A DNA stretch of 9,170 nucleotides from the IMG/VR virus record IMGVR_UViG_2724679236_000012; one strand, given 5' to 3'. A program made the position numbers. This DNA comes from a virus. Taxonomy: Duplodnaviria > Heunggongvirae > Uroviricota > Caudoviricetes. Every line of letters begins with the position of its first letter. The stretch's first letter is position 1. This document shows, piece by piece, positions 3,001 to 6,000 of this stretch.

Positions 3001-6000
3001 TGGCTATAATGTAATCAAACTGGATGATGAGTATAAGTATGCTCTTGTCAGTGGTCCGAACAGAGAATACCTATGGATTCTGGCAAGGACCCCAACTATT
3101 CCAGATAAAGTAAAAGCAGACTATGTGCGAACCGCTCAAAAGTTGGGATTCAATGTCAATGAATTATTATGGGTTAAACAATAAAATCCCTACCCGAAAT
3201 AATACTTATTAGAAAAAAACCAGCCTTTGGGGAGACTGGCTAAATCAGGAAACAAGCTGTTATATGACAATAACTACGTTGCGATTCCAACATTTAAAAT
3301 GTTAGACTAATGAGAATCAGACAGCAACTTTTCCTTTAATTATTTCGAACAATCAGCATCCATCTCCAATCGGAGATCCAACACCATCAGCATACCCTCC
3401 ACTACGCCCTCAGCTTTCTGGAGCATCCTGCCAACCCAACAATCAGATCGCCCATGCTTACGTGCAAGCGCCATAAAAGTCATGCCGCCGACATAATAGT
3501 CCACCAATAAATCATGCAAATCGCTGTTGTTCTTTTTCAGACGGGCCATGCACCCGCAAATGATCATCGCGTCATCGTCACAACATTGTGGGCGAGATTT
3601 TACTTTTGAAGGAATTAATCCCTTAAAACCGGCGGCAATGGACGACCAGGTCACATCTTCATGATTATTAGCCGCCCACGCTCCCCAACGCTCAAGAACC
3701 ATCTGAATATCACGCATCAACTTACTCCACAAAACTCAGACCAGAACGCCAATTACAAGCAAAAATCAACAAAACAGTATTAGTTGATTGTTATCTCTGA
3801 CTTCATACTCCTGCTCCTGTCAGTGTTTTGGCGTAATTCTTCAGTATTCGGTAATCGGTCAAAACATAACCGGGGAAACGATATAAGCGCAGACGACCCC
3901 AGCGGTGGCGAAGAAGTTCTGCCATATAAAACTCAAACATCATTCATTCCCCATTTCGGTGATGGTCAGTTCCAGCCTCCCACCTTTGGTAACGGGCATC
4001 TTCACAACGCGGTAATCAACGACCTGAGAATCATCCAGCCATAAACCTGCTTTGGTGAGTGCGTCAAAAGCGGCTTTTTGCAGATTATCCAGGTCACGGC
4101 GACGGCGATCCGGCATGTGGCACTCAATACGGATTTTCACTGGCATAGCCAGGCCGATATCCAGCATTGCGTTTTTAATGATTCGGGTGACGTTATCGCG
4201 GTATGCCTGCCCCTCTGCGCTGACGTGCGTGCGCCCGCGATTATGGCGGTAATAGCGATTATTGCTCGGAGGCCAGGGTAATGTGATGCTGTAGGTATTC
4301 ACGCCTTAATAACCCCCTCTTTCAGCCAGATAACCTGTGTTCTCGCCAGACCTTCCAGCGCGCATTCTTTTGCATATGCAGCATCGACAAAATGTGTGCG
4401 GCGGTCGATTTCGTCGTGGCAGGCAGAACATGCAATGGTGGCAATCAGGTCTGGCGGTTTGATACCGGTACCGCACAATCCAGCCAGCCGGATATGTGCC
4501 AGTACAGACGTTTCAGAATTGCCATTACATACGCCAGGGATTCTTACCTGGCATTCCCGACCACGCGCTGCTTTTCTCAAATCAGCCATGATTCCTCCTT
4601 GCTGCCAGTCGCAACCATTTTTTATCAACCAGGCTAGCGGTATATCCGAGCAGTGTTGGTATTTCGGATGGCTTCAGCTCAGGCTTACGCTTACGACGAT
4701 TTGATACTCTCTAGATGTGTCCGTTCATGACACGAATAAGCGGTGTAGCCATTACGCCTCCTGCTTGTCGCGGAGCAGCTGGAACTCGCAGCTCTGCGGA
4801 ATAGTCAGGTGGCAGCCAATATTCACCGCCCAGGCTTCAACCTTACACAGGAAGACATACATCTCTCCGGTATCAAGATCGGAGGTATGGCGTAACGACT
4901 GGATAGTGGTGATATCACCGGTTACGACATCAACCAGGTCTTTGGTTTCATAACCGAGATATGTGTGTTTGAGAGCATCTTTTACCCAAGCTGGAGTGGC
5001 GAACGTTTTACCCCTGCTGATGAGGTATTCACTGATTTCGCTGTACCACATGTGGCTGAGTGCATTCTGGGAAAGACTGCGTTTCTCACGCCACGGTTTA
5101 AGCACCATGCGAAAGCATTTGCCCTCCTCCAGATAAGGCTGGATCTGCCGACCGATAGCGGTGAAGTTGCCGCGATGTAATTTGATGCCGTCTTGTGAGA
5201 GGTTCACGCTTCACCTCCGCAGAGGTCAAACGCTGGATGCAAAGAATTGCAGGTGCATTTCTGCATCTGTGAAGGGAGAAGAGAGTTTGGATTGTATGTG
5301 CGCATAAACGTCCCCGTTTAGCGCAGAAGTCACCGGAGTTGTTCAGGCTCCGGTGACATAATTATGCCGTGTTGATTTCCCAAAATCAAAATCGATAGAA
5401 TTGCTCCTTCTTAAAACACTTTTACTCTCTGGAAGCTTTTCTTATCTCTCTTGGTGTTATATTAAAACGATTATGAAATCTTTCAGTAAAACGAGAAGGA
5501 CACTTATAACCATTTTCTCTGGCAATCTCGCTTATAGGTTTTACCGTCGTTTGTATAGCAGACAACGCATTATTTAACCTCACATCGTCCAGTATACTTT
5601 GGAAACTTACCCCCTCGCTTGCTAGACGGCGATGTAATGTAGAAACAGAAATGTAGAGATATCGAGCAACCTTGTTTGCTGTCCATTTTGTGCCGGGTTC
5701 GGATAGCAGCAGGTTATAACAACGACTTATCAATGATTGTTTACTATATGATAAAAGTAAATGATTAACATGATTCACTCCTAACGAAAGTAGAACGCCC
5801 ATTGCTAAGTGCTCCTGAATTTTAGTTGAGAAGCCTCGGGAAACAGATGTTTTTAGTTGCTCCCAACAATATATTAACTCAGGATTCTGAGGTAAAAAGA
5901 AACTTGTTTTGTTACGTATTTGATCAGTTACCGTATAAAGTTTTTGGAAACTCTCAATTAAATCAATGGGTAAGTAAAGCATTTCTGCAAGATAAAGCCC

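What the first reader, a model, noticed from the sequence alone, without database searches (positions are those of the whole stretch)
4582..4752. In-frame amber codon interrupts ninE at codon 14
The ninE frame is intact in length (56 codons) and coupled to ybcN by TAATG, but codon 14 (4711..4713) is TAG where NinE proteins have Tyr (a single TAT/TAC to TAG change). This is either an inactivating nonsense mutation in a cryptic-prophage gene or a gene that depends on an amber suppressor (supE-type) in the host.
Basis: partly seen in the sequence, partly recalled or inferred. Interest (0 to 1): 0.45.

Follow-up and report, generated by a model that had tools for sequence, protein, structure and literature searches.

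The report
Nonsense mutation in prophage gene ninE
A small lambdoid-prophage gene of unknown function (ninE) carries a real, inherited single-base stop-codon mutation in one sublineage of Escherichia albertii, which is an ordinary gene knockout and not an unusual coding device.

Summary
On the minus strand, 4752..4582 is a 56-codon ninE frame. It overlaps ybcN by TAATG and ybcO by ATGGCTGA. Codon 14 (4713..4711) is TAG. The changed base is 4711, not 4712: TAC became TAG, and this is the only difference from the commonest intact allele.

It is not a sequencing error. The window is the whole contig BBVS01000050.1, apparently from Escherichia albertii. Eleven other public records carry the identical allele, including two complete genomes, drafts, metagenome contigs and SRA assemblies.

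The allele is derived and confined to this sublineage. Seven sister loci, 98.3-99.4% identical, keep TAC. None of 2,831 matching RefSeq E. coli records has the 61-mer containing TAG.

No usable in-frame start follows the stop, so what remains is a 13-residue peptide. ybcO has its own AGGAGG ribosome-binding site, and nothing else in the window is interrupted by a stop.

Best reading: a recent, probably neutral, null mutation in a dispensable accessory prophage gene. Dependence on an amber suppressor could not be tested and has no support. The prophage is much more complete than K-12 DLP12, so calling it "cryptic" is unproven. Ordinary; low interest.

The parts
4582..4752 (-). ninE frame (56 codons plus TGA) interrupted by an amber codon; it encodes only a 13-residue N-terminal peptide
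   Evidence: Translation. One base different from the intact allele WP_000224916.1. The repaired protein matches NCBIfam NF007245 'NinE family protein' over its full length, 141.4 bits against a cut-off of 88.
4711..4713 (-). Amber codon TAG at codon 14; the mutated base is 4711 (TAC>TAG, Tyr>stop)
   Evidence: Identical in 12 independent records. TAC in seven sister loci, in E. coli and K-12, and Tyr in the phage 82 orf56 protein.
4710..4715 (.). TCTAGA (an XbaI site, containing CTAG) created by the mutation; incidental
   Evidence: Read directly from the sequence. The reference has TCTACA.
4750..4754 (-). TAATG overlap of the ybcN stop and the ninE start
   Evidence: ybcN ORF 4752..5207.
4582..4599 (-). 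ninE/ybcO junction: AGGAGG Shine-Dalgarno (4599..4594), 4-nt spacer, ybcO ATG (4589..4587), ninE TGA (4584..4582)
   Evidence: Sequence. The same hexamer is annotated as a ribosome-binding site for orf96 in the phage 82 record X92588.
4299..4589 (-). ybcO (96 aa), intact, immediately downstream of ninE
   Evidence: Pfam PF07102 YbcO, 137.6 bits. No internal stop.
4752..5207 (-). ybcN (151 aa), intact, immediately upstream of ninE
   Evidence: Identical to the common E. coli YbcN allele.

Best explanation
This is a real, recently arisen and vertically inherited nonsense mutation (TAC>TAG, Tyr14>amber) that knocks out ninE. NinE is a 56-residue accessory protein of unknown function, encoded in the nin region of a DLP12/phage 82-type lambdoid prophage carried by a sublineage of Escherichia albertii. 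Shown: translation of ninE should stop after 13 codons, and the remaining 42 codons stay unchanged only because too little time has passed for further decay. Inferred: the neighbours ybcN, ybcO and rusA stay intact, and ybcO can start from its own AGGAGG site, so the loss is most likely selectively neutral or nearly so. Also inferred: only the trace near-cognate read-through that any UAG allows would give full-length protein.
For: One base separates it from the commonest intact allele. The window is identical to contig BBVS01000050.1. The same TAG allele, with no other ninE difference, is in 11 further records: CP117678.1, CP117600.1, BJCW01000043.1, JAQALC010000065.1, ENA ERZ27259797 and ERZ927379, Logan DRR162447, SRR12535032, SRR29790543 and DRR017166, and metagenome contig OLIF01000164.1. 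The nine rusA-allele contigs compared are 99.89-99.99% identical to the window over up to 9.1 kb. Seven sister loci that share the window's ylcG allele are 98.3-99.4% identical over ylcH..Q and keep TAC with a called 56-aa NinE, so the stop is derived. No RefSeq complete E. coli record among 2,831 matches has the TAG 61-mer. No ATG or GTG follows the stop in frame; the only later start-type codon is a TTG ten codons before the end. Gene callers skipped ninE in every amber contig. All 13 other tabulated genes in the window lack internal stops. Intact alleles show 6 synonymous against 3 non-synonymous polymorphic sites, pN/pS about 0.17, so the gene was constrained before the hit. From established knowledge: lambda nin5 deletion phages, which lack the nin region including ninE, are viable.
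Against: Neutrality is inferred, not measured. The host's tRNA genes were not examined, so suppression is not formally excluded. The base after the stop is A (UAG-A). From my own recollection of the literature, not checked here, that context favours suppression and leakiness. The allele is fixed in a sublineage, which drift and hitch-hiking explain but which does not exclude selection.
Confidence: 0.9

Rival explanations
1. Suppressor-dependent or read-through gene: the lineage carries an amber-suppressor tRNA, or relies on leaky UAG-A termination, so that full-length NinE is still made with another residue at position 14.
For: The downstream 42 codons are unchanged. The stop is followed by A, a context I recall from the literature, without checking it here, as favourable to suppression. 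I also recall reports of natural coliform isolates carrying amber suppressors.
Against: The unchanged downstream codons are equally expected for a very young mutation, since the lineage differs by only 0.01-0.11% over 9 kb. No other in-frame TAG occurs in the window's other genes. ybcL in the same window ends in TAG and would be extended by a suppressor. The host is a wild E. albertii lineage, not a supE laboratory strain. Gln or Ser in place of a conserved aromatic residue (Tyr/Phe) might not preserve function. The host tRNA set could not be examined.
Confidence: 0.03
2. Selected inactivation: loss of NinE, or polar down-regulation of the downstream ybcO-rusA-ylcG-Q genes, was advantageous to the host or the prophage, and the allele rose by selection.
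For: The allele is fixed in a sublineage found in at least 12 records from several sources. The intact gene shows signs of past purifying selection, so its loss is a change of state.
Against: There is one origin only. No independent ninE knockouts were seen among the loci examined, and none of 2,831 E. coli records has this change. ybcO has its own strong Shine-Dalgarno. The mRNA between the stop and the ybcO start is no more structured than shuffled controls, z = +1.17. No promoter-like or terminator-like site lies in the segment. The untranslated gap is only about 125 nt. Clonal hitch-hiking explains the fixation.
Confidence: 0.05
3. Sequencing or assembly error in a draft contig.
For: The source is a short draft contig of 9,170 bp. 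It also shows homopolymer-length differences in another gene.
Against: The identical base is found in two complete genomes, two other draft assemblies, three metagenome contigs and four independent SRA-run assemblies. The change is a C>G substitution outside any homopolymer.
Confidence: 0.01

Closest known systems
ninE (b0548) of the E. coli K-12 cryptic prophage DLP12, and orf56 of phage 82 (X92588)
   Same: Same 171-nt gene in the same ybcN-ninE-ybcO-rusA-ylcG-Q order, with the same overlapping start and stop junctions. The window gene differs from K-12 at 6 of 171 bases and from the commonest E. coli allele at 1 of 171.
   Different: Codon 14 is TAG instead of TAC. The host is E. albertii. 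The prophage in the complete genome CP117678.1 keeps int, dam, exo/recT/gam/kil, a repressor, O and P, which K-12 DLP12 has lost or has disrupted.
Lambda NinE (nin60, NP_040637.1; Pfam PF05322)
   Same: A small basic protein in the nin region between the replication genes and Q. The C-terminal motif YTA..D..WLR..AR is shared.
   Different: Only 35% identity. Pfam PF05322 matches only residues 18-53 and scores 23.8 bits, just under the 25-bit cut-off. The N-terminal segment holding residue 14 is not reliably alignable.
Point-mutation pseudogenes in degrading ('grounded') prophages
   Same: A single nonsense mutation in a non-essential prophage accessory gene, inherited clonally. The same element also shows an IS insertion and homopolymer frameshifts in some members. 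General background is in PMC6379469.
   Different: Nothing in kind. Here the rest of the prophage early region still looks intact.
Amber mutants propagated on supE/supF hosts (classical lambda 'am' alleles)
   Same: An in-frame UAG within a lambdoid phage gene.
   Different: Those are laboratory-selected alleles in essential genes, kept on suppressor strains. This is a natural allele in a dispensable gene in wild isolates, with no evidence of a suppressor.

Membership tests
NinE family (NCBIfam NF007245, DLP12/phage 82 type) | Full-length profile match above the curated cut-off | tested here: met
   With codon 14 restored to Tyr: 141.4 bits against a cut-off of 88, residues 1-56 on profile positions 1-56.
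NinE family (NCBIfam NF007245, DLP12/phage 82 type) | Uninterrupted open reading frame that encodes the protein | tested here: not met
   TAG at codon 14, with no usable in-frame restart. It is a disrupted allele of a family member, not a functional member.
NinE family (NCBIfam NF007245, DLP12/phage 82 type) | Position in the nin region, after a NinB/YbcN-type gene and before YbcO/NinG/RusA-type genes and Q | tested here: met
   ybcN-ninE-ybcO-rusA-ylcG-Q order in the window, matching K-12, phage 82, phi80, HK639 and Klebsiella phages.
Pfam PF05322 NinE (lambda type) | Score at or above the gathering threshold of 25 bits | tested here: not met
   23.8 bits (E = 4e-5) and C-terminal only, residues 18-53. 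It is a related subfamily that falls just below the threshold.
Pseudogene by nonsense mutation | A premature stop that is derived relative to intact close relatives | tested here: met
   TAC in seven sister loci that are 98.3-99.4% identical, and in E. coli and K-12. TAG is found only in the sublineage that carries the window's rusA allele.
Pseudogene by nonsense mutation | The change is real, not a sequencing artefact | tested here: met
   12 independent records carry the identical allele.
Amber-suppressor-dependent gene | The host encodes a tRNA with a CUA anticodon | not testable with these tools
   Only about 21 kb around the prophage could be fetched from the host genomes. The whole-genome tRNA complement is out of reach.
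Amber-suppressor-dependent gene | Other genes of the lineage also carry in-frame TAG codons | tested here: not met
   None of the 13 other tabulated genes in the window has an internal stop. Rz, which was not called in CP117678.1, is in fact intact.
DLP12-type lambdoid prophage | Gene content and order emrE-ylcJ-ybcK-ybcL-ybcM-ylcH-ybcN-ninE-ybcO-rusA-ylcG-Q...essD, with high nucleotide identity | tested here: met
   99.1% identity over 9,089 bp to E. coli DLP12-like prophages, and 98.4% over 5.7 kb to K-12 DLP12.

The most novel reading that the evidence does not exclude
The least ordinary reading not excluded is that this E. albertii sublineage carries a natural amber-suppressor tRNA, or makes use of leaky UAG-A termination. 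ninE would then still be expressed at a reduced level, making the TAG a natural expression-attenuating allele and not a null.
Probability: 0.03. Interest if true: 0.4.

Novelty: already known. Interest (0 to 1): 0.07.

Why it matters
It matters little. It adds one lineage-specific pseudogene to the catalogue of prophage decay. It is consistent with NinE being dispensable to the bacterial host, as the viability of lambda nin5 deletions already suggested for the phage. Two minor practical uses follow. The SNP, which creates an XbaI site, marks one E. albertii sublineage. Annotators should label 4582..4752 as a ninE pseudogene and not leave a gap there.

Tried and rejected
- Sequencing error is rejected. 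Look-ups by the window's exact RusA and YbcK proteins, plus a metagenome scan, returned 11 further records with the identical TAG.
- A common E. coli polymorphism is rejected. None of 2,831 RefSeq E. coli records matches the TAG 61-mer exactly, and the best 371-nt hits are all one mismatch away.
- The TAG 32-mer was not found in any GTDB species-representative genome, so that scan did not name the organism.
- Paper searches by accession number found nothing. A search for 'NinE' was swamped by the word 'nine'. The narrower search gave one irrelevant paper. The E. albertii genome paper PMC4700944 does not list BBVS accessions in its main text.
- Short orthologues that start downstream of codon 14 are rejected. 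All relatives examined are 56-60 aa and start at the same place.
- Another feature hidden in the segment was looked for. There are no Rfam hits in the window and no promoter-like or terminator-like sites within 4582..4752. The mRNA is no more structured than shuffled controls.
- A second in-frame TAG in the lineage, which would have hinted at a suppressor, was not found.
- Checking host suppressor tRNAs was considered and dropped. The tools cannot fetch arbitrary regions of CP117678.1, and reaching several tRNA loci through flanking proteins would have cost the capped large-database searches for a hypothesis with a low prior.

Full report
**Observation**

The minus-strand frame 4752..4582 reads MATPLIRVMNGHI*RVSNRRKRKPELKPSEIPTLLGYTASLVDKKWLRLAARRNHG*. 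That is 56 codons plus a TGA stop, with TAG as codon 14 at 4713..4711.

- The start overlaps the ybcN stop as TAATG (4754..4750).
- The stop overlaps the ybcO start as ATGGCTGA (4589..4582).
- ybcO is preceded by AGGAGG at 4599..4594. The phage 82 record annotates the same hexamer as a ribosome-binding site.

The mutated base is 4711, the third codon position (TAC>TAG), not 4712.

**What the locus is**

The window is a DLP12-type lambdoid prophage segment. Its gene order is essD, an AraC-like gene, a ybgA-like gene, a lipocalin gene, Q, ylcG, rusA, ybcO, ninE, ybcN, ylcH, ybcM, ybcL, ybcK, ylcJ and the 3' end of emrE.

- It is 99.1% identical over 9,089 bp to the best complete E. coli genomes.
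- It is 98.4% identical over 5.7 kb to K-12 DLP12.

With codon 14 restored to Tyr, the protein matches NCBIfam NF007245 'NinE family protein' end to end, at 141.4 bits against a cut-off of 88. The lambda-based Pfam model PF05322 matches only residues 18-53 and scores 23.8 bits, just under its 25-bit cut-off.

I aligned it with K-12 NinE, phage 82 orf56, phi80, HK639, CobraSix, two Klebsiella phages and lambda NinE. Position 14 is Tyr in the DLP12/82 type and Phe in the other 56-aa relatives, so an aromatic residue is conserved there. The lambda N-terminus does not align reliably. No orthologue is short or starts downstream of this position.

**Is the stop real?**

No complete RefSeq E. coli genome carries it. 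The best 371-nt hits are all one mismatch away. None of 2,831 matching records has the 61-mer centred on the TAG.

A look-up by the window's exact RusA protein showed that the window is the whole contig BBVS01000050.1 of GCA_001514845.1. Every other contig with that RusA allele has the identical TAG and no other ninE difference. These are two complete genomes (CP117678.1 and CP117600.1), two drafts, two ENA metagenome contigs and three Logan SRA assemblies. Look-ups with YbcK and a metagenome scan added DRR017166 and OLIF01000164.1.

That makes twelve independent records, so this is not a sequencing error. The nine rusA-allele contigs compared are 99.89-99.99% identical to the window, which marks a young clonal sublineage.

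**Whose genome?**

The window's exact RusA and YbcO sequences are recorded in NCBI and UniRef only under Escherichia albertii. This explains why the allele is missing from the E. coli collection. The source assembly's organism name was not seen directly, so the species assignment is an inference.

**Is the stop derived?**

The window's ylcG allele is more widespread. Seven loci carrying it (CP126908.1, CP030783.2, CP117668.1 and others) are 98.3-99.4% identical over ylcH..Q. All have TAC and a called 56-aa NinE. The stop therefore arose once, on the branch leading to the sublineage that carries the window's rusA allele.

Across seven distinct ninE alleles there are 6 synonymous and 3 non-synonymous variable sites, besides the nonsense change. 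With 41.7 synonymous and 126.3 non-synonymous sites, pN/pS is about 0.17. This is a small sample, but it suggests the gene was under purifying selection before the hit.

**Consequences**

- After the TAG there is no in-frame ATG or GTG. The only later start-type codon is a TTG ten codons from the end. The product is a 13-residue peptide.
- Gene callers left a gap at ninE in every amber contig.
- ybcO has its own AGGAGG site.
- The 152-nt mRNA from the stop to the ybcO start is no more structured than shuffled controls, z = +1.17.
- The segment has no promoter-like or terminator-like sites and the window has no Rfam matches.

Strong polarity on ybcO and rusA is therefore not expected. That is an inference, not a measurement.

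All 13 other tabulated genes in the window are free of internal stops, and ybcL ends in TAG. Rz was not called in CP117678.1, but on inspection it is intact. ninE is thus the only amber-interrupted gene seen.

**Interpretation**

The best explanation is a recent, clonally inherited null mutation in a dispensable accessory prophage gene. It is most likely neutral (confidence about 0.9).

Dependence on an amber suppressor cannot be tested here, because the host tRNA genes are out of reach. I rate it at about 0.03 for three reasons:

- The host is a wild E. albertii, not a supE laboratory strain.
- There is no second in-frame TAG.
- The unchanged downstream codons are what a very young mutation would show anyway.

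Selected inactivation or selected polarity is possible but has no support (about 0.05). Sequencing error is excluded.

In CP117678.1 it keeps int, dam, exo/recT/gam/kil, a cI-like repressor, O and P upstream and lysis genes downstream. It is far more complete than K-12 DLP12, so it should not be assumed to be cryptic.

**Comparison with what is known, and novelty**

This is a disrupted allele of a known gene (DLP12 ninE / phage 82 orf56) in a known type of prophage. The mechanism is an ordinary nonsense mutation. From established knowledge, lambda nin5 deletions that remove the nin region are viable, which fits the loss being tolerated. There is nothing new in kind. Interest is low.

Noticed in passing
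window 9090-9170: The last 81 bases are the end of an IS481-family element (97.6% identical to E. coli copies) inserted in emrE, and the contig stops there. The same junction appears in the Logan assembly of SRR12535032 (L012). Other members of the amber sublineage have an intact emrE.
   Followed up: partly
window 421-1165 (- strand), indels near 445 and 1033: The AraC/HTH_18-type regulator gene is frameshifted by length changes in two poly-A tracts (A9 against A7, and A7 against GA8). Its state differs among near-identical lineage members: 245 aa intact in L006 and L009, 195 aa or 197+44 aa in others. This could be slippage-prone tracts or assembly noise.
   Followed up: partly
whole window; L030 (CP117678.1 4311955-4333481): An apparently E. 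albertii genome carries a prophage segment 99.1% identical over 9 kb to E. coli DLP12-like prophages, which implies recent exchange between the species. In the complete genome the prophage keeps int, dam, exo/recT/gam/kil, a repressor, O and P, so it is much less decayed than K-12 DLP12.
   Followed up: partly
window 42-158 (essD): 32 of the 81 substitutions relative to the best E. coli match cluster in about 120 bp of essD, mostly at 3-base spacing. This looks like a recombination patch from a diverged holin allele.
   Followed up: no
window 4710-4715: The TAC>TAG change creates TCTAGA, an XbaI site containing the rare tetranucleotide CTAG. It could serve as a simple marker for the sublineage.
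   Followed up: no
window 4752-5207 (ybcN): YbcN, annotated as a 'DNA base-flipping protein', gives a sub-threshold Pfam match to NinB (22.3 bits against a cut-off of 23.8). It occupies the position that NinB/Orf holds in lambda.
   Followed up: no
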